Part shown: piece by piece, positions 1 through 52,065 of the stretch | Layout of the letters: each line of letters starts with the position of its first letter | Numbering within the stretch: position 1 is the first letter of the stretch | Source: Trypanosoma brucei | Lineage: Eukaryota | NCBI GenBank assembly: GCA_000002445.1 | Contig: CP000070.1 | Span: 1,312,001-1,376,000 of the forward strand | Length of the DNA stretch: 64,000 bases | Reading direction: 5' to 3' | Notes under the pieces: model-generated | The model's database searches: none | Told to the model about the DNA's origin: nothing | What the model saw: only the letters and a program-made list of their open reading frames with translations | Program-made: the position numbers and the translations under genes

Positions 1-915
1 TCCTACTGCGACGCCAGCGGCCGGCGCAGGGCGAACCTGCGGCAGCTGACCATCCCCCACGCCCCACGACAAGCTCCCATTCCACCACCATGCGGCCATG
101 CCCCAGTGGTACAACACCGACGGAACTGACGCACCCCCATTTTCACTGGCGAATTTCGAATGCACCAATGGCGCGCCACGCACGGTGGCCTTTACAGTGT
201 GAATCCGCTCCATCCTCCGGGAGAGAAGGTGCACGGAGTGAGCAAACACCGTCGACCAAACTATCCGTCCCGAAACCTTCAGAGGCCTGAAGACAAGCAT
301 TTCTTGTTTTTTCGTGGTACTCCCCGCCTTGCACTACCACACCGTCCCGACAGCGACCCTCTGCGCATCTTGGTTGCCACACCCACCCTATTGAATGGAG
401 GAGTCCCTATTGCGAGCGGTGAGCCTAAACTAACCGCACAGGTGGCCCCAAATGGGCAAAGCACGTTGTCGTATTTCCCCCTTCTTCTTAATATGTGTGT
501 CTTTCCCTCCTTATACATGGCATTTGCTTTTGCTCACCCTGAAGGAGGGGCCCTTTTTCTTGGTCTCGCTTCTTATTGTTGTGTTTTGGTCAAATAGTGT
601 TTTCCCGTGAGCGTACCACGTTGTAACACCATCCCTTCAAATCATTTAATCACTCATGCGTGCGATGTCCCGGAGGGCTCGATTTCTCTTCCATCACGCG
701 GGATGACCCTCCCCTGACCACAAGCTGAACAAAACATCCTATTGCTTGTTGCACCTCAAGAGGTGATGGGTCGGCCGCGCCTTCTTCAGGATGTCGCTAC
801 CGGTCCTGTTGGACAGCCCTCCGTCTACAATGCTCCCCGTCGGACCATGTAACATTTCCATCGTGCTTTTATCATTTATGAATGTTGAGAATAACCACGG
901 TCCGGCCTCGTAGCG

Positions 916-941
916 CACACACACACACACACACACACACA
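916..941. repeat. (CA)13 dinucleotide microsatellite
   Basis: Uninterrupted cacaca... run read directly in the ORF-poor leader region. Confidence 0.9.
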
Positions 942-3900
942 GCTGCACCAACCCCTGATGGAATCTCCAGAATACTCATGTGACCCAGTCCGGTGAAAAA
1001 ACCGCTCCTAACTTTACCAGCATGAGCCTGGTTATTATGGACACTTCTTGCGCACACAACTCCACGACTCATACAGGCTTCGTTGTGTGGCCCGGTTACT
1101 TTGGCGCCTTCCTCAACGCATACCTCTACGGGTCACCATAAGATTTAGTGAAGGGCGCGTTATCCCCCGAAACGGTATGCGCCCGCTTTGGTAGTTTAAA
1201 CTTCAATGAAGTCATCTTTTGATCACTAGGTATCGTGGACAGGTCCAGCCCGTGGGGTTACATTTCAGCTTCCGTCAACCCTCCTCTGTTTGCGTTAGCA
1301 TAAGGTTGCCGGCGGGGAAAAGGTTTAATATATTCTGTTTACATTGGTTAGTAACTCAGTGGATCTATCGTTCACGGCCATGAACAGAACAAAGTCGGAC
1401 ACCGTTCTTTTTGCCACACGGTACGGCTATATGGGGCCTTCCCAAAGTACTGTCGGTTTATAATGACTCTCGCCATCTTGTTGGGTGAAAGTTTCTTACC
1501 CACCACATAATTTGTAGATTAGAAAAAAACTTTCTCGGCCGCTCAGAAAATGGCAACATTTCCCATGGGTTCAAACTAACGAGTGTAGAGTATGAATTTC
1601 ACCGTGGCGAGCACCGTCGATTCGTACCAAGTTGCGTCTCCAATCAACTGAGTTATGGATCCTACTGCCAAATGTTGGCGCAGAAACCTTTCTCTTTTGT
1701 ATACGCAACTGACAGTCAACAGAGTCCACAAATCTCCTTTGAATCAACTACTGCATTGCTTTGTAATTGGCGCAGGTGGTCGCTGTTAGTTTTTGACGAT
1801 GCCATGACAGAAATCCCCTTGCTTTCCCCTAACGCCAGTTCAATAGCTTCACACTTCCACTTCCCGACACTCCTCAGCATTTTCGATTCCCGTTGAGTAG
1901 TTGTTTACCTGTAGTTTAGCCCGTTTACCTCCATGTGCTTTAGTTGGTACACCATACACGCCATTTTCTTCAGCAGAAGAAGGAAATTTCGATCTTCCTG
2001 TGGCAACAATCGGCTCAACCATGCGAAACAGTTTGTGTTTCGCGTCTTCTCAACCTCTGGCACGTTCTTTACCGGGGCATCCGAGAGTTTTGTCTGTCGT
2101 TGGTGGCACATTTTTGACCTTGGTTGCGGCTACCGCTCCTTCTATCAGCGTCTTGCCGTTTATCACTGGTGGAAGGGTTGGTCCCCATTCTGGGGCGTGC
2201 ACCGCGTTCGAAAACTTGCGGCCGCTTTTTTTCTGTTGCCGACGATTTGGGTACATGATCTTTCCATTTTTTAAAGGCTAGTACATGCATGACATGTATC
2301 CTAACTTCAAAGAGGTCGCCTTTCCCTTGCACCTGTGGGAGATTATCAGCTTCCTAGTTTAGTTCTGAAAAACTACTGTTCATAGTAAGAGAAATTACTG
2401 GTCTACAGCTATGGATATTCCTCACTAGAGAGTCGCACATTGCTACGTGCATCCTGTCCCCATTTCAGTTTATACACGCTTCCATCTTGCAGAGCACTTT
2501 CCTCTTCCCTGTTACCCACCGTTTCTTGGATTATATACAGGTTGCCTCTTTTGATGAGAAGTGGGAGCTTCGATGAGCGGTTGGCATTATTTTTTCAACT
2601 CCTGACCCGGCGATGGCATGGAAGACTCTCGAACTGCGGTTGTAGTTCAGCCTGAGCGCGGCGTTCTTCTGCGGCACATCACAATTCTATTGGGAACTAC
2701 TGTCCGGGGCGAATTTGGTTCTTCAATTTTTTCTCCTTGCAATTGTCCCTGTGTGGACGACTCCCATTTCGTCATCCACAAACCAATTTGAGGTTGTCTT
2801 GCCTCTGTGAGTTCGTGAGATATGTTTGTCTTATGTAGGATGGTGGAAAATAACGTTCACCCGGTTAATGATCTCAGCCTTTCCGTGCCCGTTGTGGCGT
2901 TCTCCAGAAAGCGGTTGGGCGCAACGGTGAGCTTTACATGGCGGTCAACCGCCACCATGGTGGTTGCGTCTCCCATCAATTTCGGAGTTGACGACCCCTT
3001 TAGTAACTTCCACTACGTCCAGGACGAGGCATAGGCTCTGGGGACTCCGTTTTCAGTGCGTGCGTGTCCGCAACGCTTATATCCCATCACATTAAAGCAA
3101 AGGCTTTCCCCTCGGCTGAACCGCGTTTCTCAGGGAACGCAGAAAGTCACTTCGCCCTTTCGCAACGTTTCCACCGGGACGACCTCCTTCGATTGGGGCC
3201 GGAACATTTTATATCTCACTGAGCCGCGCGGGTGCCGGAACCAGTGGATTGACTGGGACCTTCGGCAAGTAACAGAGTGAGGCCGCGGGGATCTTGCGTA
3301 TGGACTTGTTGGCATGTGCTTCGGTGCAACTCGAGCTGCGTTGGACCCCCGGTGGCCGGCAGTCCGCCGTGCGTCGGCGCGGCCGCGGGTAACCCGAGGC
3401 AATTGCCATTCCATTCTTTCTGGGAGGGCTTTGACACGTCGGGGTTTATGTGTACGGCCGGCGGCTAACCTAACTGCCACGAAAGAACAACTCCAATAAG
3501 TTGTTTCCGTCTTGATTCTCGAGGTTTCAGGGATCCCGTATTAAACCATCCGGCGTGGGGGCGCACGGTCAAAGTCTTCTTTCCACATGCGGTGTGATTG
3601 ACTGCGAGGTCGTGGGTACCCGGAGATAGTTTGAGGGTAGCTCCCCTTTGTAAGCTTTCCCCCCGCCCGCGCTACGGTTACTTCCGTCTTCTTTCCACAA
3701 TGGGATATTCCCAGTGGAATGGGTTCCGGGGCCTTATCACCTCTCGTGCGGGAAAATTCTGACTCTTTGTGCCCTGTGGGGTTGTCTTTGATGACGGGGT
3801 CGGAGTTATCTTGAGACAATTTCACATTTCCTTCCCCCAATACGTTCTGTCGGGCGATGTGTTCTCGTACGGTTGCCCCTGCGTTGCGTTCAACTGGTTG

Positions 3901-4181
3901 ATCCTCGCGCCCGTTGCGCCTTACACGGAGTTTTGAGCCCCCCTTCAGGGTTCTGGGCGTTACCGGCAGCTGGGTGGTGGTTGCGGCTCCTTGCCATGAG
4001 TTTCATGTCCAGTGGACGCTGGAAGACATCTGAGGCAGCGCTCATTTTGATAGTATTGGCTATGTTGCTGTTTCTGACGTGTGTGTGGGAGGCTTCGCTT
4101 AGGTCGCTGATGGTGTTGCCGCTTTTTAAAAGTTCGGTCGAAAGGCGCGATGGGGGTGAGGCGCCGTGTGTGCACATAAAC

Positions 4182-4207
4182 TGTGTTTGTGTGTGTGTGT
4201 GTGTGTG
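4182..4207. repeat. (TG)n microsatellite, imperfect
   Basis: tgtgtttgtgtgtgtgtgtgtgtgtg read directly; complementary in composition to the (CA)n run at 916. Confidence 0.85.
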
Positions 4208-6041
4208 ATGGAGGAGCGACTTAGCTCCACCAACGCTGAGAGAAGTGGTTTTAATCTAGTGGTTACTGCCGCTTTGGATTTCCCCTACTGGCGCCAATTC
4301 TGTTATTTGTGCCAGGTAATGGATAATTTGGGATGAGGGTATTGTTTTAATGTTGATGAGAGGCCGCACATGTTTTTTCCCTCTCGCCAATAGCTTGCAT
4401 TTCCAAAAATTTATTATATACCCTGAAAAATTGGCGGCATTTACCTCAATACACTGCTGCGTTCTGTATCTGGACGGTTGGTGCGTACCCCAGAAAAATA
4501 CGTAGCTCCTTTGAGTTATGTGTGGATGTTGTCCATTTATGCCACTGTTTCCCCTACCTATGTGGGGGGACTTGGTATCTTTGTGTTTTTGCCCATTATG
4601 AGGTAAAGCTATTGACGTGGTTTGCTGCGCACTTTCTGTTAAGTATGTTCGAGCTATCGTGTTCATGCGATCAATTTACGATCCCTATAACGGGTTATAT
4701 ATTGGGTTTCTTAGTTGTTGTTGTTTTTGAAGAAAGCGTGTGTCGGGGACGAGCGGCTGTTACAAACTAGGAGTTAAGACCGTCAGTCGTGTATATTTTT
4801 TGCGGTGCTGAATTCATGTGCCATCACTTACATCTTTTTCGTATGATTAATTTTTTTTTTTTGCCGAATCAGATTATCTGTTTATTGGAGGGTATTGGAG
4901 TGCCTTCGCTTTTGTTTAGCATTTTCCCGATTTCTGTTACTGGTTGGTTGGTCTACCGTTTTCCTGCGTAAATGGCGTAGGCGACGTGCTAACATAATTT
5001 GTGTTTCACTTACTGCGGTGCTGTGGGCAAGAAAAAGACCTACTTATGGACGTGAGCCTTTCGAACTATTGGAAAACAGTGGTTTCACTCAGTAAGGCTG
5101 CATCAGTTTTGCTACTGTCGTACATTTGAGAGTGCTCTCGACGCTTTTCGACCGAATTTTTTTTTAAAAAACTTCGTTGAAGTGTTTTCACGGCCATGCG
5201 CGTATGAATAGTAGGAACATTCGTGTATATATGTGCGAAAGTTTCTGTTTTTTTTGTTGATGATTCAGTCTCTTGACTGACGCCTTACCCTTTTTGGTGT
5301 TGATGTATCATATTAGGCCAGGAAAAGAAGGGGGAGGGGTTCACCAATCTACATTCGTACCGACCATTGCCACTAGAATCCATATGGGTAAATATTTGTA
5401 ATCAACTTTTGAGGAACTAGTACTATATCTTATTTCTCTAGAAGGAGGCTAACTACTGAGTGGGGTGATCCACTTTATAGTTTATAACTCACGGACAAAC
5501 AAACCCGTTCCTATCCTTGATTGAGTTTGGCTTGTTCTACCGGCCCTTATAAACACAAAGCTACTGTTGTCGGAAATTCGTAAAGAAAGCCGACTGTCGT
5601 TTCTTTGCTTTTTCGTTATACGTGGTTGCACTCTTTGTTGATACTTTTGTCAATGTTATCTTATGCATAATGCTAAAGCACGAAATGTACCCTAATTCAA
5701 GTTGTTGTAATGTGTTGCTGGCTTCGACATATTACAGATGAATGCCCCCTTTCTACTATAAGACACCGTTTACCTCCCCCCTGACAACAGTGGAGAGAGT
5801 TTGCCAGATACGCCGCCAGCGGTTAAGTCCGTTGTGGAAATAGCATCAACAGGATGGATGTAGGCGATGATGAGTAAGCGTTAAATCTTCTCATAGACGT
5901 TGTGAGAAACAGTGTCTCACAGTTAAATAAATATTGGCTCGCTGGTGTGGGGACTTCTTGCCACCAGAGCCTGCGTGGGCTGACAATGTTGTCGGGCATT
6001 ACCTTTGAAATATTTCTGTTTAATTTTGAGATATATCATGA

Positions 6042-6070
6042 TTTTTCTTCCCCCCTCCTTTTTTCTTTAG
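6042..6070 (+). promoter_or_regulatory. Polypyrimidine tract plus AG, candidate trans-splice acceptor for the GS gene
   Basis: ttcttcccccctccttttttctttAG ends 36 nt upstream of the first ATG that gives a GS-like N-terminus. This is the usual kinetoplastid pre-mRNA processing context. Confidence 0.4.
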
Positions 6071-6105
6071 CCATTCGCATCGTGATTGCTTGTGGAATTC
6101 CGTCA

Positions 6106-7251
6106 ATGACAAACTCTTCAGTGCAGCAGGTTGGTTGCCGGGTAACATACATATGGCTTTCTGGAAAGGATTCGCATCACGATATTCGCAGCAAGGACAG
6201 AACCATATATATTTCACCTGATGATTTGGAAAAGGACCCCAAAGAGCTTCTCCGTTTGGATATGTTCCCTGTATGGAATTTTGACGGTTCCTCAACAGGT
6301 CAAGCTGAAGGATTAATAACTGAAATTCACATCAAGCCTGTAAATGCGTACCACTGTTGCATTCCCCGTGCTTCCTCTTCAGTACCATGGATAGTTGTAC
6401 TCGCTGAATGCTTTTTACCGACCGGCGAACCCACACCCGATAACTCGCGGGCGGTAGCTCGTCGCATATTTGATAAAGGGCTCGGTACCCATCCATGGTT
6501 TGGGATGGAACAGGAATATTTCTTGGTAAAAGACGGACATCCCTATGGTTGGTGTCCCACTTGTCCCCCCGCGTCCCAGGGACCTTACTACTGCGCAACT
6601 GGCTCTGAATGTATCCGAGGTCGGAAACATGTTGATTTGCATTATGAGGTTTGCCTGCAAATGGGACTCAAGATATGTGGCACAAATGCTGAAGTTGCAT
6701 TTGGACAGTGGGAATTTCAAGTCGGGCCGTGCGAAGGGATCGAAATGGGTGATCAGCTTGTTGTGGCTAGGTGGGTGTTGCTACGAATTTTGGAGCTTGA
6801 AGGGTTGGATGCAGATTTTCGTGCAAAGCCTATTTTGGGCGACTGGAACGGTAGCGGACTTCACACCAACTTCTCAACAGAGGCCACTCGGGCACCGGGT
6901 GGTTTGGAAGTCATTTATCAATATATTGAAAGATTAAAGGAAACTTCGTCCAAGGATATAATTTTTTATGGAGTTGACAATAACGAGCGGTTAATAGGGA
7001 AGCACGAGACCTCAAAATTAAATGAAACAACGTTTGGAATAGGTACACGGGGGACCTCAATTCGAATTCCTACCGCTGTGGCTGCCGCACAAAGTGGTTA
7101 TATGGAGGATCGCCGGCCTGCGGCAGGGGCTGATCCATACTTGGTGTCATCAAGGCTCTTTGCATCATGCCTATCAGTGGACGCCGTTGAACTGGATTTT
7201 TCATCTCCTCGACACGAGCGGGAGTGGATGGCAAGTACTTCTAAGGTGTAG
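6106..7251 (+). CDS. GS: Glutamine synthetase, eukaryotic type II (381 aa)
   Basis: The translation carries GS-II signatures WNFDGSSTGQAEG, HPWFGMEQEYFL, QGPYYC, GTNAEVAFGQWEFQVGPC, NGSGLHTNFST and RIPTAVA...GYMEDRRPAAGADPY. Start is the first ATG (MTNSSVQQ) after the polypyrimidine/AG. The track's longer GTG-initiated extension encodes hydrophobic non-GS sequence. Confidence 0.9.
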   Translation: MTNSSVQQVGCRVTYIWLSGKDSHHDIRSKDRTIYISPDDLEKDPKELLRLDMFPVWNFDGSSTGQAEGLITEIHIKPVNAYHCCIPRASSSVPWIVVLAECFLPTGEPTPDNSRAVARRIFDKGLGTHPWFGMEQEYFLVKDGHPYGWCPTCPPASQGPYYCATGSECIRGRKHVDLHYEVCLQMGLKICGTNAEVAFGQWEFQVGPCEGIEMGDQLVVARWVLLRILELEGLDADFRAKPILGDWNGSGLHTNFSTEATRAPGGLEVIYQYIERLKETSSKDIIFYGVDNNERLIGKHETSKLNETTFGIGTRGTSIRIPTAVAAAQSGYMEDRRPAAGADPYLVSSRLFASCLSVDAVELDFSSPRHEREWMASTSKV

Positions 7252-7804: not shown

Positions 7805-8992
7805 ATGCCTGGTTGCCTTTCGGCGCTGGCGTCGCATGTGGAATCAGCATCTGTGGTCAGTACCAAGTCGAAACGTAAAAGGAAAAGTAAGAAGAAGGCT
7901 TTGTACGACCAATATCTTGCTGACTCAGGCAGCGAAGACTCATCTGAACTGAGCAAAAATGTGAACGGAACTCCAAGCAAGTATGAATATGAAGAATTTG
8001 AACCCGGTATGGATATAAATATTCTCATTCAACAAACTATTCAGAATGTTGTGCAGAGCGTATGTTTAGAAGATTGTGACGGCCTATCACAATTTGGCGA
8101 CAATGATTTAATTTGTTTTAGCGCGGCAGTGAAACATAATAGTTCTATTCTTTCTCTTCAAATCCGGTACCTTGATGTTTCGGATGTGTCACTTGTACCT
8201 CTGTGCCGTGCACTTGAGTGCCATCCTTCTATTCGGGCTCTGGATCTATCGGGGACCAGGGGTGGCCGCCCCTCTGTCAAAGCGGTCTTTCAACTTGTGT
8301 GCACAAATCCTAATATATTGTTTGTTCGCCTGGACGATACGATGGTATCCCCACACGACGCTGAGGATATAAGGGTTGCTACCCTATATAATGCTTTGGC
8401 ATGCCCTGATCCCACTAACAATCCCTTTTATTTAGGGTTGTTGCGAAAAATAAGCGACATAGAAGAGGAAAAGCAGAAATACAAAGAACAGCTATCGGAA
8501 CAGTTGTGGCTTTTTTCAAGTCGACCCCAAAACAATTTAAATTCGGGTAAGGAGAAAAAGGTTGGATTCAGTGAAAAGGTATCAGAGTCTCGAATAGGCG
8601 CTGATGTTTGTGCACAGTTTATGTCTGGGAGGTGTGCATACGGGTCACGGTGCAGGTACATTCACCCTGATAAGACCACCGCACTTAGGAACGCAATTGC
8701 CCTTAGTAAATATAAGATGGCGCAGATGATCGATGACGACGCGAAATCAGTTAAAAGCAGCGCAACTTCCCTTGGACAGACTGGAAGGGGTAGGTTGCAG
8801 AGTAGACTTCGTCCAACGAATTTTACTATGAATAAAGTGCATTGTGCGGTCGCCACTGTGCATGAAGGTTCGGTTGAACAGTGTAGTGCAGGCTCGAACG
8901 AGGAAGCGGCTGACGTAGCTTTGAGGTTGTCCATTTGGACATTTGCTCTTGTTACTGCTGTTTGCAGTGTTGTGCTGATCGTGGTTTACTGA
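7805..8992 (+). CDS. CCCH zinc-finger protein with leucine-rich-repeat-like region and C-terminal hydrophobic anchor (395 aa)
   Basis: ATG start. Single C-x7-C-x5-C-x3-H motif (CAQFMSGRCAYGSRCRYIH). LRR-like LSLQIRYLDVSDVSLVPLCRALECHPSIRALDLSG. The last ~22 residues (LSIWTFALVTAVCSVVLIVVY) are predicted transmembrane. Basic KRKRKSKKK stretch near the N-terminus. Confidence 0.6.
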   Translation: MPGCLSALASHVESASVVSTKSKRKRKSKKKALYDQYLADSGSEDSSELSKNVNGTPSKYEYEEFEPGMDINILIQQTIQNVVQSVCLEDCDGLSQFGDNDLICFSAAVKHNSSILSLQIRYLDVSDVSLVPLCRALECHPSIRALDLSGTRGGRPSVKAVFQLVCTNPNILFVRLDDTMVSPHDAEDIRVATLYNALACPDPTNNPFYLGLLRKISDIEEEKQKYKEQLSEQLWLFSSRPQNNLNSGKEKKVGFSEKVSESRIGADVCAQFMSGRCAYGSRCRYIHPDKTTALRNAIALSKYKMAQMIDDDAKSVKSSATSLGQTGRGRLQSRLRPTNFTMNKVHCAVATVHEGSVEQCSAGSNEEAADVALRLSIWTFALVTAVCSVVLIVVY

Positions 8993-11905: not shown

Positions 11906-12688
11906 ATGGTGTCACTGAAGCTCCAAGCTCGCCTGGCAGCGGACATCCTGCGCTGCGGCCGCGGCCGCGTGTGGTTGGACCCTAACGAAGCAGTAGAGAT
12001 TCGCAATGCCAATTCACGCAAGAGTGTACGCAAGTTGATCAAAGACGGTTTGGTAATGCGAAAGCCTGTTAAGGTGCATTCGCGCTCCCGCTGGCGCCAG
12101 ATGAAGTTGGCGAAGAGCATGGGACGCCACGAGGGTACCGGCCGCCGCGAGGGTACTCGCGAAGCACGCATGCCCAGCAAGGACCTTTGGATGCGCCGAC
12201 TTCGCATTCTTCGCCGTTTGCTTCGCAAGTACCGCGAAGAAAAGAAGATTGATCGGCACATCTACCGCGAGCTGTACATGAAGGCAAAGGGCAACGTGTT
12301 CCGCAACAAGCGCAACCTTATGGAGCACATCCACAAGGTGAAGAACGAGAAGAAGAAGGCTCGTCAGCTTGCTGAGCAACTCGCGGCGAAACGCCTAAAG
12401 GACGAGCAGAACCGCCGCAAGGCACGAAAGCAGGAGCTGAAGAAGCGTGAGAAGGAACGTGAGCGTGCACGCCGTGACGATGCCGCTGCTGCTGCCGCTG
12501 CCAAACAACGAGCTGCCGCGAAGAAGGCTGCCGCTCCCGCTGCCAAGAAGGGTGGCAAGGCTGTTGCCCCCGCCACTCCTGCGAAGGCCGCCCCTGCAAA
12601 GGCCGCCGCTGCGAAGGTTGCCCCAGCGAAGGCGGCTCCCGCAAAGGCCGCCAGCCCTGCCGGGAAGAAGGCAGCGGGTAAGAAGTGA
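11906..12688 (+). CDS. RPL19: 60S ribosomal protein L19e, copy 1 (260 aa)
   Basis: [28 protein letters not shown]...[24 protein letters not shown] is canonical eL19. Ala/Lys/Pro-rich C-terminal tail typical of trypanosomatid L19. ATG start. Confidence 0.95.
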
Positions 12689-13589: not shown

Positions 13590-14372
13590 ATGGTGTCACT
13601 GAAGCTCCAAGCTCGCCTGGCAGCGGACATCCTGCGCTGCGGCCGCGGCCGCGTGTGGTTGGACCCTAACGAAGCAGTAGAGATTCGCAATGCCAATTCA
13701 CGCAAGAGTGTACGCAAGTTGATCAAAGACGGTTTGGTAATGCGAAAGCCTGTTAAGGTGCATTCGCGCTCCCGCTGGCGCCAGATGAAGTTGGCGAAGA
13801 GCATGGGACGCCACGAGGGTACCGGCCGCCGCGAGGGTACTCGCGAAGCACGCATGCCCAGCAAGGACCTTTGGATGCGCCGACTTCGCATTCTTCGCCG
13901 TTTGCTTCGCAAGTACCGCGAAGAAAAGAAGATTGATCGGCACATCTACCGCGAGCTGTACATGAAGGCAAAGGGCAACGTGTTCCGCAACAAGCGCAAC
14001 CTTATGGAGCACATCCACAAGGTGAAGAACGAGAAGAAGAAGGCTCGTCAGCTTGCTGAGCAACTCGCGGCGAAACGCCTAAAGGACGAGCAGAACCGCC
14101 GCAAGGCACGAAAGCAGGAGCTGAAGAAGCGTGAGAAGGAACGTGAGCGTGCACGCCGTGACGATGCCGCTGCTGCTGCCGCTGCCAAACAACGAGCTGC
14201 CGCGAAGAAGGCTGCCGCTCCCGCTGCCAAGAAGGGTGGCAAGGCTGTTGCCCCCGCCACTCCTGCGAAGGCCGCCCCTGCAAAGGCCGCCGCTGCGAAG
14301 GTTGCCCCAGCGAAGGCGGCTCCCGCAAAGGCCGCCAGCCCTGCCGGGAAGAAGGCAGCGGGTAAGAAGTGA
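13590..14372 (+). CDS. RPL19: 60S ribosomal protein L19e, copy 2 (260 aa), identical to copy 1
   Basis: Protein is identical to 11906..12688. The antisense artefact ORFs are also identical, which implies the DNA is identical across the CDS. Period between copies is 1684 bp. Confidence 0.95.
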
Positions 14373-22092: not shown

Positions 22093-23265
22093 AAGGGTAC
22101 TGATCAAGATTTACGAGCGTGTATGTGTGCCACGTGCGAGTTAGATGTATAGTTGAACATGTGGTTTTCTCACCTACTGGTTATCAGGGAACAGGAGGAA
22201 GAGAGACGAGAAAAGAGAGTGTAGAACCCAGGCGGAATCCGGATGTGTAGAGTTTTTTTTATCCAACCCCCTCCTACAATCCCCAATTGTGACATTTTTG
22301 GATATGCAATGTTCAATTCTGTTGTACTTTTCGTGGGATATACCCCCCTTTCCGGACTGAATCCTCTTCCTGAAGATTGTTGACTTTGTTTCTCTGGTTT
22401 CCTGCTTTGTTCCCAGCAATGGGGGAACTTGTTCCTCTATTTTGCCATGTATGGTTCCGGCGGGGAGACCACAGCTACTATTCACATTATTGCTATTCGT
22501 TCCGTTTTCCTTTTCATCTCTGTATGTTTTTTTTTCCCTGACCCACTTAACGTATCTGTCCAACATACAGATGGGCTCGAGTGAGTGCACGATCTCAGTT
22601 AAAGGACAAGAGGGACGGGATATGTTAGTGGTGGCGGCTGTGAGCTAGCTGAGCTTATTTGGACCACTGTAAGGTGTGCATGTGGTGTGGGGTGTCGCAG
22701 TGGAATTTATAGTGGCTGAGCCGGTGTTAGTTTTGGGATGCCTTCTTCGCTTTCCATTTTCTTACCTGCGTTCCATCGACTATTGCAGGTGATTTTTTTG
22801 TTACTGTATTCATTGCCGTTACTTGTTGTCGTAGTACATCACCGTATTTGCGCACCGTAGTCGCCACTCTAGACGTTGTGTGCCACAAAGTTTGCCATGC
22901 ATGGAACTGATGTACAATATGATATGTACGTTGTGCGTATATGCCGTAGGCTGCGGGATGAATTGTTTGGGCCGTTACTTAGCTTTGTGTAGTGGCAATA
23001 TTTCTGTTGTTGTTCCCACTGGTAGCTATGTTTTATTCACTGTCTTCTCTACTGTGACCAAGTTCTTGTCACGGACTCTTGAGGTTCATCCTCGCCGTTT
23101 TGTCGAATACGCTTCCACACCGCTGATCATCTCCGTATATCTTCCCTCCTTTTTATACACTTTTTTGTATGGAATGACCATTCGAATCCGATATCAAAAA
23201 GAGTGAAACTAAAAAAAAAAGTTTTGCATTACTTCAATTAATTAGTACACATTACACCCAACGTC

Positions 23266-49422: not shown

Positions 49423-50286
49423 ATGAAGAACGCCCGCAGAGTGTCACTTTCACCGTTGATTTTGCGGTCACTCGCTGAACTTCAGGACGGCCTCAACACC
49501 GTAGTTGACAAGAATTGGAGGCAGTTGCGGCGACCGGGTGACTGGTCACTGGCTATTACTATGGAAGCTGCGGAATTACTCGACTCTTATCCGTGGAAGT
49601 GGTGGAAGAATGTGAAGGCACAACCAGACCTACAAAATGTGAAGATTGAGCTCACGGACATTCTGCATTTTTCCTTGTCGGGTGCCATGCAGGTGAGTGA
49701 CGAAAACTCGGGGGCGGTCCACAAAGCCGAGGCAGGCTCGAATGGAGAATCAGGGAAGCATTGGTGCTACTTTGACCAACCTCGTGCGCTGCCCGCAGCA
49801 GGGGGAGCAGAATATGTGGCATGCGTCGAAACCCCAGGTTCCTCTCTTTCAGCGCCCGTGTCTGCTGACGAGTGTGACCTGGCGGACTTTATGTTCTTCC
49901 CCCTCTCTGATACAAATAACGCACTAGCAAGTTTTCAGAACATTATTCGACTAGCCAGCCTTCAACGATTCCAACTCGTGACATCAGCCGTTATCGCAGC
50001 TGCGGACGATATTGGTTTCAACCTCGTTGCCTATTATGTGGCGAAACATACACTCAACGGTATCCGTCAGATGAAGGGCTACAAAGATGGCACGTACGTA
50101 AAGGTGCAAAAAGGCGTGGAGGACAATGAGCTACTCCATGGGTGCATATCTCCGTTTTCCCTTGACGACGTGACTAACGAAGGGAATTACAAAACAAAAT
50201 GGGATGACATCATGCACCGCGTTTATGATGCCTTTGGTACCCCGAAGGAGGAGCGGTTAAACATTGGGCACTGGCTAAAGTCGTAA
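49423..50286 (+). CDS. DUT: Dimeric all-alpha dUTPase (kinetoplastid type, 287 aa)
   Basis: [47 protein letters not shown] and [16 protein letters not shown] match what I recall of the dimeric trypanosomatid dUTPase, but I could not check this against a reference. The length fits the ~285-aa family. Confidence 0.75.
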
Positions 50287-50940
50287 GCGCTTCCCGTAGA
50301 GAAACCATGATTGAGCTACCGAGTCACCCCATTATTGTTAAAAGTATAGACGGATGTAACGTGGCGTAACAAATCACTAAGTGTGAGGGGATTGATAACA
50401 ATGGTGGTGATAGTAAATAGACGTGAGATACGGAATATTAGGTGCGTTGTTTTCCACACACGCGCTGGGGTCTTCGAAAAGAGTTGAATAACGACCATCA
50501 CTACCGGTGCTTTCGCCCATTGTGAGCACGGGTGTGGGTTGCCGCGGGAGATTTGGCGAAGTTCATTCAGCTTATTTGTAGTGAGGGGTCTACCCACATC
50601 GCATACTTGAGCAAGGCTTGAAAAGGAGGAGGAGGCAAAAGGAGACGAAGTGGTCGTTCTGACCGAATACTAAGGTGGCTGTACTACCTCCAACTATCAC
50701 CGCACATGGGGCAAATGATCTATCGCAAACAAAAACTGTGTGTGACACACGCACCAGTTGACGGGCTTCTGAATTTGTCGCATCTTTCTCTTTACTTCGT
50801 CTCTGCTACACTGTCCTCTTCTACCCTCTTTACCAATTTTAAATTTGTACGAGGAAATTTTTTTTTTTTTGGGGGTGCCGGCTTACCCAAGGTGTGGGGA
50901 GTAAAGAAAAGGGACAGCAGATCGTAGAAAATAAAGGAGC

Positions 50941-51593
50941 GAACGATGCCCGCTAAAGCTGCTTCTGCTGCTGCTTCGAAGAAGAACAGTGCGCCCAAGA
51001 GCGCTGTTTCGAAAAAGGTGGCCAAGAAGGGTGCGCCTGCTGCTGCTGCGAAACCCACGAAAGTGGTGAAGGTAACGAAACGCAAGGCATACACCCGTCC
51101 GCAGTTTCGCCGCCCGCACACGTACCGCAGGCCCGCGACCGTGAAACCCAGCAGCAACGTAAGTGCCATTAAGAATAAGTGGGACGCGTTCCGGATCATC
51201 CGCTACCCCCTCACCACTGACAAGGCGATGAAGAAGATTGAGGAGAACAACACCCTAACCTTCATTGTGGATTCTCGTGCTAACAAGACTGAGATCAAGA
51301 AGGCGATCCGCAAATTGTATCAGGTTAAGACGGTGAAGGTGAACACACTCATTCGACCTGACGGCTTGAAGAAGGCCTATATTCGCCTGTCTGCGTCATA
51401 CGATGCGCTCGACACGGCAAACAAGATGGGTCTTGTTTAGTGTGGTGGATCTGTAGGGGTTTCTTACTTCCTCAAGCAACTTTGTATGGTACTGTGTGGA
51501 TACGATTCCTTCAGTATTTTGCACCGTATGGTAGGAGAGGATGAAAGAGAAACAGCCACGAACTGTCGTGTATGTTTTTATTTGTTTTTTTAT
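50941..51593 (+). repeat. L23a duplication unit 1: CDS plus ~150 nt of conserved 3' flank
   Basis: Near-identical to 52066..52718 (3 mismatches in the 3' flank). Identity begins ~5 nt before the ATG and ends after ...tatgtttttatttg. Confidence 0.85.
50946..51440 (+). CDS. RPL23A: 60S ribosomal protein L23a (uL23), copy 1 (164 aa)
   Basis: KAYTRPQFRRPHTYRRP...IIRYPLTTDKAMKKIEENNTLTFIVDSRANKTEIKKAIRKLYQVKTVKVNTLIRPDGLKKAYIRL is canonical L23a/L25. In-frame stop lies just upstream of the ATG. Confidence 0.95.
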   Translation: MPAKAASAAASKKNSAPKSAVSKKVAKKGAPAAAAKPTKVVKVTKRKAYTRPQFRRPHTYRRPATVKPSSNVSAIKNKWDAFRIIRYPLTTDKAMKKIEENNTLTFIVDSRANKTEIKKAIRKLYQVKTVKVNTLIRPDGLKKAYIRLSASYDALDTANKMGLV

Positions 51594-52065
51594 CCCACCT
51601 ACCAAAGTATAGCTGTGGGAAGGATGGGAGTGACAAAAGAAAGGTTGCGCCGGAGGTCGGAGTGCAGACTGCTCTTGGAAGTATGGCGAGGGTGAAGTTG
51701 CGGAGGGAATGTTAAACAATATAAGAAGGAAGTTTTAAACGGTTTTAAAATATGAGATGAAATATGCCGTTTGAGTCTCATTTCTGTCATCTTCGACCCA
51801 ATCCCTTTTTTCTTCGGATTACCACATTGTTGTTGGTTGGTAGTGTTGACACGGCTCCGTTGATTTCTCTTCCTTAAGTGCTTATCAACGTTTTAATATT
51901 GGATGATGATATCTTTTGCCCAAGGATCGGGGGTGCTTGTGTGGGGAGAGTGGGGTAGCCAGTTGCATCGCCTTCAGACGACTGTTATCATGATTTCATA
52001 TCCCTTTTTCCATTATTGGATTTCCCCACCTGTTTTCTGTAGGCTTCTTTCTCTAAGGTTGACGC

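What the first reader, a model, noticed from the sequence alone, without database searches (positions are those of the whole stretch)
1..5900. 5.9-kb leader with no ORF over ~145 aa on either strand, containing a GC-rich island
Every other interval between genes in this window is 1.2 kb or less. The first 5.9 kb has only short, frame-scattered ORFs. It contains (CA)13 at 916 and (TG)n at 4182. It also has a distinctly GC-rich, CpG-dense block around 3040-3560, with inverted GC-rich elements (ggccgcgggg ... gcggccgcggg). Possible explanations are a very long 3' UTR of an upstream gene, a transcription start or strand-switch region of the polycistronic unit, an unannotated structured ncRNA, or a heavily degenerated retroelement. 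I cannot tell these apart by eye.
Basis: seen in the sequence. Interest (0 to 1): 0.5.

Follow-up and report, generated by a model that had tools for sequence, protein, structure and literature searches.

The report
Trypanosome divergent transcription start region
The gene-free 5.9 kb is the middle and right-hand part of an already mapped 10-kb region on Trypanosoma brucei chromosome 7 where two long gene arrays start in opposite directions, so it is ordinary, except that its core holds a 1.86-kb segment also found in a second start region on chromosome 10.

Summary
Window 1-5985 has no open frame longer than 155 aa, which is the random expectation. Both microsatellites and a GC-rich block are present.

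The window is T. brucei chromosome 7 (window x = Tb927_07_v4 coordinate minus 1,312,000). The first gene is glutamine synthetase, Tb927.7.4970. In T. b. gambiense the next real gene upstream is a 459-aa gene on the opposite strand, about 4 kb left of the window. The gap is therefore a 9.97-kb divergent strand-switch region. Kolev et al. 2010, Table S14, already lists both flanking arrays as 'Divergent' RNA polymerase II units.

Composition is mirror-imaged. G+T on the + strand is 0.42 in the left half and 0.56 in the right half, switching at window ~1075. A C-rich and a G-rich GC island flank the centre. The orthologous Leishmania region has the same layout without sequence similarity.

I found no support for a hidden gene, a retroelement with recognisable protein domains, a known RNA family or excess RNA folding.

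One unexpected item: window 362-2217 is 96% identical to a segment on chromosome 10 that lies in a mapped 'Internal' start region.

Verdict: already known kind and locus, low interest.

The parts
1..6070 (.). Central and right-hand part of the 9.97-kb divergent strand-switch region between Tb927.7.4960 (- strand, start codon about 3.98 kb left of window base 1) and glutamine synthetase Tb927.7.4970 (+ strand).
   Evidence: One search gives the 459-aa minus-strand gene with its start at L007 position 27, and the GS start at L007 10001, which equals window 5986. One search aligns window 1-5985 to L007 4012-10000. Searches give Kolev Table S14. Searches show there is no coding signal.
1..490 (-). 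In-window end of the left GC-rich island (L007 about 3500-4500). It is C-rich on the + strand, so G-rich on the - strand, which is the coding strand of the leftward array.
   Evidence: 58.8% GC and GC skew -0.21; 14 C3+ runs against 3 G3+ runs in 1-500.
362..2217 (.). 1.86-kb low-copy segment, 96.3% identical and co-oriented with T. b. gambiense chromosome 10 (L014 8435-10285). That copy lies in the 'Internal' RNA polymerase II start region between Tb10.70.4500 and Tb10.70.4430. The edges are sharp, with no target-site duplication, terminal inverted repeat or poly(A) tail.
916..941 (-). (CA)13 on the + strand, which is (TG)13 on the - strand. It is the only (CA)n of six or more units on the + strand of the window. 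Its length varies between strains (13, 16 and 19 units).
1000..1150 (.). Strand-polarity switch point. The cumulative (G+T)-(A+C) minimum is at window 1075 (L007 5092), 51% of the way along the strand-switch region.
2850..4200 (+). Right GC-rich island (55.7% GC). GC skew turns positive here. Proposed 5' zone of the rightward transcription start region; this is an inference.
   Evidence: Analogous islands occur in Leishmania, T. theileri and T. vivax and on chromosome 10.
3300..3414 (.). Imperfect palindrome that folds as one long hairpin (z = -3.0). It was chosen post hoc. Positions 3292-3430 are invariant in four T. brucei-group assemblies. Its significance is unknown.
4182..4207 (+). (TG)13, outward-facing partner of the (CA)13, 3.24 kb away. 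It is 10 perfect units here and 8 in the other strains.
   Evidence: PMC13532274 reports poly-GTGT elements at polymerase II peaks, citing Cordon-Obras 2022.
4250..6039 (+). AT-rich, G+T-rich stretch (41.9% GC, G+T 0.58) between the island and the first splice acceptor.
6040..6070 (+). Polypyrimidine tract and AG dinucleotide. The 5'-most spliced-leader addition site of the GS mRNA is at 6071 (Tb927_07_v4 1318071).
   Evidence: Kolev Table S1; sequence.
6106..7251 (+). Glutamine synthetase coding sequence from the probable true start codon (381 aa). The annotated ATG at 5986 lies upstream of the splice site.

Best explanation
The interval is non-coding DNA of a divergent strand-switch region on Trypanosoma brucei chromosome 7. 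RNA polymerase II starts two polycistronic units here in opposite directions. One runs leftwards from Tb927.7.4960 to Tb927.7.4690. The other runs rightwards from glutamine synthetase Tb927.7.4970 to Tb927.7.6000.

Shown:
- The flanking genes diverge.
- The 9.97-kb gap has no coding signal.
- Base composition is mirror-imaged, G+T-rich on whichever strand is the coding strand, and switches at window ~1075.
- The first mature mRNA on the + strand starts at the spliced-leader site at 6071.
- The arrangement is syntenic in Leishmania and T. vivax.
- The published 5'-triphosphate RNA data list both units as beginning here.

Inferred:
- Rightward initiation is dispersed. It begins around the GC-rich island and (TG)13 (about 2850-4250) and continues through the G+T-rich stretch. 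That is 2-3 kb upstream of GS, and the published average distance from start site to first gene is 2.7 kb.
- Leftward initiation uses the C-rich island and (CA)13 side.
- The region carries H2A.Z, H2B.V and acetylated H4, as other start regions do.
- RNA made upstream of 6071 is discarded after trans-splicing.
For: - Organism and coordinates: the zinc-finger gene at 7805-8989 is exact in T. b. gambiense DAL972. GS is named Tb927.7.4970 in the literature. The annotated ORF 1317986-1319251 equals window 5986-7251, and the mapped splice site 1318071 falls just after a polypyrimidine tract and AG at 6040-6070.
- Divergence: a 459-aa minus-strand gene starts at L007 position 27, and GS starts at L007 10001.
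- Published mapping: Kolev 2010 Table S14 lists 'Tb927.7.4960 to 4690, -, Divergent' and 'Tb927.7.4970 to 6000, +, Divergent'.
- Size fits the 5-10 kb reported for such regions.
- Non-coding.
- Mirror composition: G+T is 0.423 on the left and 0.559 on the right, with the switch at 51% of the region. GT-rich 10-mers lie on the outward strand of each half. This matches the GT-rich, coding-strand-biased promoter elements of Wedel 2017.
- Synteny: in Leishmania a 3-beta-HSD-like gene (the counterpart of Tb927.7.4950) and a 451-aa gene lie on the - strand, then 4.9 kb, then GS. The skew switches at 48% and there are twin skewed GC islands. T. vivax is also divergent, with a GC-rich core.
Against: - The exact initiation sites are therefore inferred from composition and from genome-wide averages.
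- Kolev's table gives units, not coordinates.
- The GC island and the microsatellites have no demonstrated role, and neither has an exact mirror position in the two halves.
- Sequence is not conserved between species. Any promoter function must therefore be compositional, or evolve fast.
Confidence: 0.9

Rival explanations
1. A protein-coding gene or pseudogene, or a degenerate ingi, DIRE or SLACS-type retroelement, is hidden here by frameshifts.
For: - T. b. gambiense and another assembly carry small gene calls of 112-193 aa in the interval.
- Two of them are named 'T. brucei spp.-specific protein' or 'hypothetical'.
- A 1.86-kb segment is present twice in the genome.
- There is a T13 run at 4849-4861.
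Against: - No Pfam family at E <= 0.1 in any of the six frames. The only listed match is PPE-PPW at E 0.13.
- No tblastn match to the T. vivax or T. cruzi intervals beyond noise.
- The codon-usage score of every frame of 100 aa or more is at most 0.054, against 0.146 +/- 0.057 for real genes.
- The longest frame equals the random expectation.
- The 150-aa gambiense ORF is cut by a stop in the window strain. It has no homologue outside its own two-member cluster.
- The duplicated segment has no poly(A) tail, target-site duplication or terminal repeats.
- Not tested: nucleotide comparison with RIME, ingi or DIRE consensus sequences, because no such library was available.
Confidence: 0.03
2. The GC-rich block, or another part of the interval, encodes a structured non-coding RNA such as a snoRNA, or a long non-coding RNA with a function of its own.
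For: - A sub-window, 3300-3420, folds as one long hairpin with z = -3.0, and is invariant in four strains.
- Kolev 2010 reports polyadenylated transcripts without spliced leader at start regions.
- A 1.37-kb novel transcript, Tb7.NT.56, lies in the left arm outside the window.
Against: - No Rfam family reaches its gathering score anywhere in the window.
- The best sub-threshold match in 1-6000 has E = 1.5.
- There are no tRNA genes.
- The island folds no better than shuffles, with z = -0.18 and +0.14.
- The hairpin window was picked after looking at the fold.
- There is no nucleotide conservation with other trypanosomes.
- No novel transcript is listed inside 1,312,001-1,317,900 in Kolev Table S7 as held.
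Confidence: 0.04
3. The interval is a long 3' UTR or an intra-unit spacer of a gene array that enters the window from the left on the + strand.
For: A 95-aa open frame runs off the left edge of the window on the + strand.
Against: - In the gambiense locus that frame is closed 120 nt further left.
- There is no long ORF for 4 kb.
- The next gene is on the - strand with its start codon facing the window.
- The left part of the region is A+C-rich on the + strand, the opposite of + strand transcribed DNA in this window.
Confidence: 0.01
4. The start region works through chromatin alone. The internal features (GC island, microsatellites, 1.86-kb duplicated segment, hairpin) are neutral passengers that accumulate in the only large gene-free spaces of a compact genome.
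For: - Inter-strain substitution density is 14-19 per kb in the interval, against about 6 in ordinary intergenic DNA and about 3 in coding DNA.
- There is no sequence conservation between species.
- Microsatellite lengths vary between strains.
- Large insertions can only survive where they do not break genes or RNA-processing signals.
Against: - The skewed twin-island layout recurs at the orthologous region in Leishmania, and a GC-rich block upstream of GS recurs in T. theileri and T. vivax, without sequence similarity. It also recurs next to the chromosome 10 copy.
- Published reporter work shows that GT-rich sequence and defined promoters drive directional initiation.
- This rival concerns the sub-features only and is compatible with the main explanation.
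Confidence: 0.45

Closest known systems
Divergent strand-switch regions, also called RNA polymerase II transcription start regions, of trypanosomatid polycistronic units (Siegel 2009; Kolev 2010; Wedel 2017; Cordon-Obras 2022)
   Same: - Two gene arrays diverge from a gene-free gap of 5-10 kb.
- G+T is enriched on each coding strand.
- The first mRNA is defined by trans-splicing.
- This very locus is listed as a pair of 'Divergent' units in Kolev 2010 Table S14.
   Different: Nothing defining differs. At 9.97 kb it sits at the long end of the reported range, and its core carries a segment shared with another start region.
GT-rich promoter elements of T. brucei start regions (Wedel et al. 2017, PMC5579346)
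   Same: GT-rich 10-mers are concentrated on the coding strand of each half. A (TG)n tract faces outward in each half.
   Different: Wedel's elements were defined genome-wide and tested as synthetic 210- and 416-nt constructs. No element from this locus has been tested. The strongest GT enrichment here (window about 4000-5500) lies downstream of the GC island, not at the presumed 5' edge.
Dispersed, CpG-island-type promoters of mammals (the comparison made by Kolev 2010)
   Same: Broad, bidirectional initiation zones. Here they coincide with GC-rich blocks that have CpG observed/expected near 1.
   Different: This window shows no CpG depletion (observed/expected 0.94 overall). The island is therefore a GC feature, not a methylation-escape feature, and one start region serves dozens of genes.
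Non-divergent 'Internal' start region on chromosome 10 between Tb10.70.4500 and Tb10.70.4430 (Kolev 2010 Table S14)
   Same: It shares the 1.86-kb segment at 96% identity in the same orientation relative to the downstream + strand unit. A GC-rich block and then G+T-rich DNA follow it.
   Different: The flanking arrays are head-to-tail rather than divergent. The first spliced transcript starts 215 nt from the segment there, against 3.85 kb here. No other sequence is shared.

Membership tests
Divergent strand-switch region / RNA polymerase II transcription start region (Trypanosomatidae) | Flanked by gene arrays on opposite strands that point away from each other | tested here: met
   A minus-strand 459-aa gene starts at L007 position 27, and plus-strand GS starts at L007 10001. 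All large ORFs of the window are on the + strand.
Divergent strand-switch region / RNA polymerase II transcription start region (Trypanosomatidae) | Gene-free gap of several kb (5-10 kb in T. brucei) | tested here: met
   The gap is 9,973 nt. It shows no coding signal.
Divergent strand-switch region / RNA polymerase II transcription start region (Trypanosomatidae) | Strand-compositional polarity (G over C, T over A on the coding strand) that switches inside the gap | tested here: met
   G+T is 0.423 on the left and 0.559 on the right, with the switch at 51% of the gap.
Divergent strand-switch region / RNA polymerase II transcription start region (Trypanosomatidae) | Primary (5'-triphosphate) transcripts and polymerase II enrichment in both directions | not testable with these tools
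   No read data were available. Kolev 2010 Table S14, derived from such data, lists both units as 'Divergent' starts at this gap.
Divergent strand-switch region / RNA polymerase II transcription start region (Trypanosomatidae) | Enrichment of H2A.Z, H2B.V, H4K10ac and BDF3 | not testable with these tools
   No ChIP data for this locus could be accessed. Siegel 2009 is not held.
GT-rich promoter element (Wedel 2017) | G/T-rich 10-mers over-represented on the coding strand of the start region | tested here: met
   For L007 8001-9500 there are 118 GT-rich 10-mers against 5 AC-rich ones. For L007 1-1000 the counts are 4 against 114.
GT-rich promoter element (Wedel 2017) | Drives orientation-dependent reporter expression and H2A.Z deposition | not testable with these tools
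   This needs an experiment.
ingi / RIME / DIRE / SLACS retroposons | Remnants of reverse transcriptase, endonuclease or RNase H coding sequence | tested here: not met
   Six-frame Pfam scan of 1-5901 found no such domain at E <= 1.
ingi / RIME / DIRE / SLACS retroposons | Poly(A) tail and target-site duplication at the element ends; nucleotide match to the consensus | tested here: inconclusive
   The ends of the 1.86-kb segment show no tail and no duplication. No consensus library was available for a nucleotide comparison.
Known structured RNA families (Rfam 15), tRNA | Covariance-model match at the gathering score | tested here: not met
CpG island (vertebrate definition) | At least 500 nt, GC above 55%, CpG observed/expected above 0.6-0.65, standing out from a CpG-depleted background | tested here: inconclusive
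   The numeric thresholds are met (57.6% GC, observed/expected 1.14). The background is not CpG-depleted (0.94), so the criterion does not discriminate.

The most novel reading that the evidence does not exclude
The 1.86-kb T. brucei-specific segment (window 362-2217) may be a portable start-region core. It sits on the polarity switch of this divergent start region. It recurs at 96% identity, in the same orientation, just upstream of the first spliced transcript of an 'Internal' start region on chromosome 10. Its duplication may have seeded or reinforced a new polycistronic unit boundary. Clustered, strain-specific substitution tracts suggest that the two copies still exchange sequence, perhaps because start regions contact each other in the nucleus.
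Probability: 0.12. Interest if true: 0.6.

Novelty: already known. Interest (0 to 1): 0.2.

Why it matters
The finding itself does not change anything. It re-discovers from raw sequence a start region that was mapped in 2010, and it shows that such regions can be recognised by three signs: no ORFs, a mirror-image G+T skew, and flanking skewed GC islands.

Two by-products could be useful to people working on how trypanosome polymerase II promoters are defined.
- The skewed twin-island layout is kept at the orthologous Leishmania region without sequence similarity, and a GC-rich block upstream of GS recurs in T. theileri and T. vivax. This argues that composition rather than motif is what is maintained.
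- Two mapped start regions on different chromosomes share a 1.86-kb sequence. That is a natural experiment for asking whether start-region DNA is portable.

Tried and rejected
- Exact-protein look-ups of the window's own small ORFs (160-594, 1933-2271, 4259-4666) and of the 421-aa GS found nothing on record.
- A 4,105-aa concatenate of all frames of 60 aa or more returned no hit. This was a false negative and is discounted. Two gambiense ORFs almost identical to parts of the query are in the collection.
- A proper single-ORF search with P0123 found only its own cluster.
- Canonical G-quadruplex motifs are absent from 1-6000.
- The T. vivax and Leishmania minus-strand neighbours match only weakly (E 0.006). 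Synteny was argued instead from the 3-beta-HSD-like gene next door.
- The T. cruzi locus was uninformative. A CpG-free repeat array and a contig end lie upstream of GS.
- The Cordon-Obras 2022 and Siegel 2009 papers are not held, so their promoter motifs and peak coordinates could not be compared.
- The Tiengwe 2012 supplements hold nothing on this locus.
- The bacterial promoter/terminator scan, the phage, plasmid and E. coli searches and structure prediction were not used, because they do not apply.

Full report
**Observation**

The first 5,985 bases have no stop-to-stop frame longer than 155 aa on either strand. Block shuffles give a longest frame of 156 +/- 30 aa. Every other 5,985-nt window of the sequence holds a frame of at least 291 aa. 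(CA)13 at 916-941 and (TG)13 at 4182-4207 are present.

The GC-rich block is real. The intergenic mean is 44%. CpG observed/expected (1.02-1.14) is barely above the window-wide 0.94, so 'CpG-dense' only restates GC richness.

The two GC-rich motifs are a direct repeat of GGCCGCGGG at 3281 and 3381, not an inverted one. Other gene gaps are at most 1,176 nt, apart from one of 1,619 nt.

**Where the window comes from**

All large ORFs lie on the + strand. The first is glutamine synthetase (GS) and the next is a CCCH zinc-finger protein. That zinc-finger protein is encoded exactly in T. brucei gambiense DAL972 and two other T. brucei-group assemblies. GS is Tb927.7.4970.

Kolev et al. 2010 Table S1 gives its annotated ORF as Tb927_07_v4 1317986-1319251, and its 5'-most spliced-leader site as 1318071. 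The ORF is window 5986-7251, so window x equals the chromosome coordinate minus 1,312,000. Position 6071 follows a textbook polypyrimidine tract and AG at 6040-6070, which confirms the offset.

The true start codon is probably the ATG at 6106. It gives 381 aa, like the 378-385-aa orthologues. None of the 5.9 kb is therefore part of the mature GS mRNA.

**What lies to the left**

The gambiense locus fetched through its GS protein (L007) shows only 112-150-aa gene calls for 10 kb upstream. A 459-aa gene on the minus strand then has its start codon at L007 25-27. Window 1-5985 aligns to L007 4012-10000. The gap between the two start codons is 9,973 nt, and the finding covers its central and right-hand 60%.

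[quoted passage not shown] This gap is thus an already catalogued divergent transcription start region. Published descriptions give 5-10 kb for such regions, with two oppositely oriented promoters. They are enriched in H2A.Z, H2B.V and acetylated H4, and the first gene lies on average 2.7 kb from the start site.

**Anatomy**

- Polarity. Across L007 28-10000, G+T on the + strand is 0.423 in the left half and 0.559 in the right half. The cumulative minimum is at L007 5092, which is window 1075 and 51% of the way along.
- GT-rich 10-mers. They sit on the outward strand of each half: 114 AC-rich against 4 GT-rich in L007 1-1000, and 118 GT-rich against 5 AC-rich in L007 8001-9500. This is the strand bias that Wedel et al. 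2017 found and showed to drive directional initiation.
- GC islands. Two flank the centre. A C-rich one is at L007 about 3500-4500; its end is window 1-490, with 58.8% GC and skew -0.21.
- Microsatellites. The two form an outward-facing pair, (TG)n on each coding strand, 3.24 kb apart. Only one other (TG)n of six or more units exists in the 64 kb, also on the coding strand. [quoted passage not shown]
- Downstream stretch. From 4250 to 6039 the DNA is AT-rich and G+T-rich, up to the splice acceptor.

**Comparative evidence**

In Leishmania the GS gene is again first on the + strand. It is preceded by 4.9 kb, then a minus-strand 451-aa gene and a 3-beta-HSD-like gene. [quoted passage not shown]

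The Leishmania gap switches polarity at 48% of its length. It has a C-rich island on the left and a strongly G-rich island, with a (TG)8, on the right. T. vivax has the same divergent arrangement, with a 58-68% GC core and an AT-rich run before GS. T. theileri has a 56-61% GC block 1-2 kb upstream of GS.

No nucleotide or translated similarity links these gaps. The layout is conserved and the sequence is not.

**Alternatives tested**

- Hidden gene or retroelement. No Pfam domain was found in any frame. No cross-species protein similarity was found. Codon-usage scores of all frames of 100 aa or more are at most 0.054, below the 5th percentile of real gene fragments.
- Structured RNA. No Rfam or tRNA match was found. 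The island folds no better than shuffles. One sub-window, 3300-3420, gives a long hairpin with z = -3.0 and is invariant in four strains. It was selected after seeing the fold, and there is no variation to test covariation.
- 3' UTR of an upstream gene. This is excluded by gene orientation.

**An unexpected sub-feature**

I checked why a concatenated six-frame query had found nothing. Two gambiense ORF calls inside the gap each turned out to share a 90%-identity cluster with a protein from chromosome 10. The negative result is therefore void.

The chromosome 10 locus (L014) shares one block with the window. Window 362-2217 matches L014 8435-10285 at 96.3% identity in the same orientation. The edges are sharp, with no tail, target-site duplication or terminal repeats. 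A search with the 150-aa ORF found nothing beyond this two-member cluster. That ORF is broken in the window strain.

I matched L014 to Kolev's coordinates through Tb10.70.4480 and Tb10.70.4430. The chromosome 10 copy lies between the end of unit Tb10.70.5230-4500 and the start of the 'Internal' unit Tb10.70.4430-3780. The first spliced transcript there, Tb10.NT.37, starts about 215 nt to the right of the copy. It runs over a 57-59% GC block followed by G+T-rich DNA.

So the same 1.86 kb, which on chromosome 7 spans the polarity switch and the (CA)13, sits in two independently mapped start regions.

Of 74 variable sites among four copies, 23 separate chromosome 7 from chromosome 10. Another 26 are private to the window strain and 14 are private to gambiense chromosome 7. 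Both private sets are tightly clustered, which looks like conversion tracts. This contributes to the high inter-strain divergence of the gap: 14-19 substitutions per kb, against about 6 in other intergenic DNA and about 3 in coding DNA.

Whether the segment is a working promoter module or a passenger tolerated in one of the few gene-free spaces cannot be decided here. I rate the functional reading at about 0.12.

**Verdict**

The feature is a known kind, and this locus is already listed in the literature. Interest is low, apart from the shared segment and the conserved skewed-island layout, which are leads rather than findings.

Noticed in passing
window 5986-6106: The annotated GS start codon (5986) lies upstream of the mapped spliced-leader site (6071). 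The likely true start is the ATG at 6106, giving 381 aa like the orthologues. Kolev 2010 Table S1 already lists this gene as misannotated.
   Followed up: yes
window 362-2217; L014 8435-10285: A 1.86-kb segment is shared at 96% identity between this divergent start region and an 'Internal' start region on chromosome 10. Differences form clustered, strain-private tracts (window strain 1450-1499 and 1282-1353; gambiense 1811-1909), suggesting gene conversion.
   Followed up: partly
window 1-3500: Substitution density against T. b. gambiense is about 26 per kb here. It is about 9 per kb in 3501-5985, about 6 in other intergenic DNA and about 3 in coding DNA. Tight clusters lie at 2609-2911 and 3052-3103, outside the duplicated segment.
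   Followed up: partly
window 3300-3414: An imperfect palindrome in the GC island folds as a single 115-nt hairpin (z = -3.0, 1 of 200 shuffles). Positions 3292-3430 are identical in four T. brucei-group assemblies. It was chosen post hoc and its significance is unknown.
   Followed up: partly
window 916-941 and 4182-4207: Both microsatellites vary in length between strains. (CA) has 13, 16 and 19 units, and (TG) has 10 perfect units here against 8 in the other strains. They could serve as markers.
   Followed up: no
window 11906-12688 and 13590-14372: There are two tandem copies of the ribosomal protein L19 gene, identical at all 783 nucleotides. They are the most GC-rich 500-nt windows of the sequence.
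   Followed up: partly
L007 about 180-1550 (window about -3835 to -2469): Kolev 2010 lists a 1,366-nt novel spliced transcript, Tb7.NT.56, on the minus strand in the left arm of the strand-switch region, just upstream of Tb927.7.4960. The identifiers Tb7.NT.57 and Tb7.NT.58, which by numbering should lie between 1,309,531 and 1,334,541, are missing from the table.
   Followed up: no
window 22541-23059: Kolev's novel transcript Tb7.NT.59 (+ strand, 518 nt) maps to an intergenic stretch that overlaps a 108-aa ORF (22880-23206).
   Followed up: no
window 50284-51902: This is the largest gap inside the gene array (1,619 nt). It holds a 164-aa ATG ORF (50946-51440) that may be a small gene.
   Followed up: no
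L010 1-5500; L010 9445-10599; L012 10001-14763: In T. cruzi, a CpG-free repeat array of about 5.5 kb (called as a 434-aa 'gene') lies upstream of GS, and a PALP-domain gene sits between GS and the zinc-finger gene. In T. theileri, GS is tandemly duplicated.
   Followed up: no
L001 5678-6259 (window about 3482-4063, - strand): One assembly calls a 193-aa gene on the minus strand over the GC island. In the window the frame is 153 aa with a codon score of 0.02, so it is most likely a chance ORF in GC-rich DNA.
   Followed up: partly
method: The word-seeded protein search returned nothing for a long X-joined concatenate of frames, although near-identical proteins are in the collection. Negative results from such composite queries should not be trusted.
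   Followed up: yes
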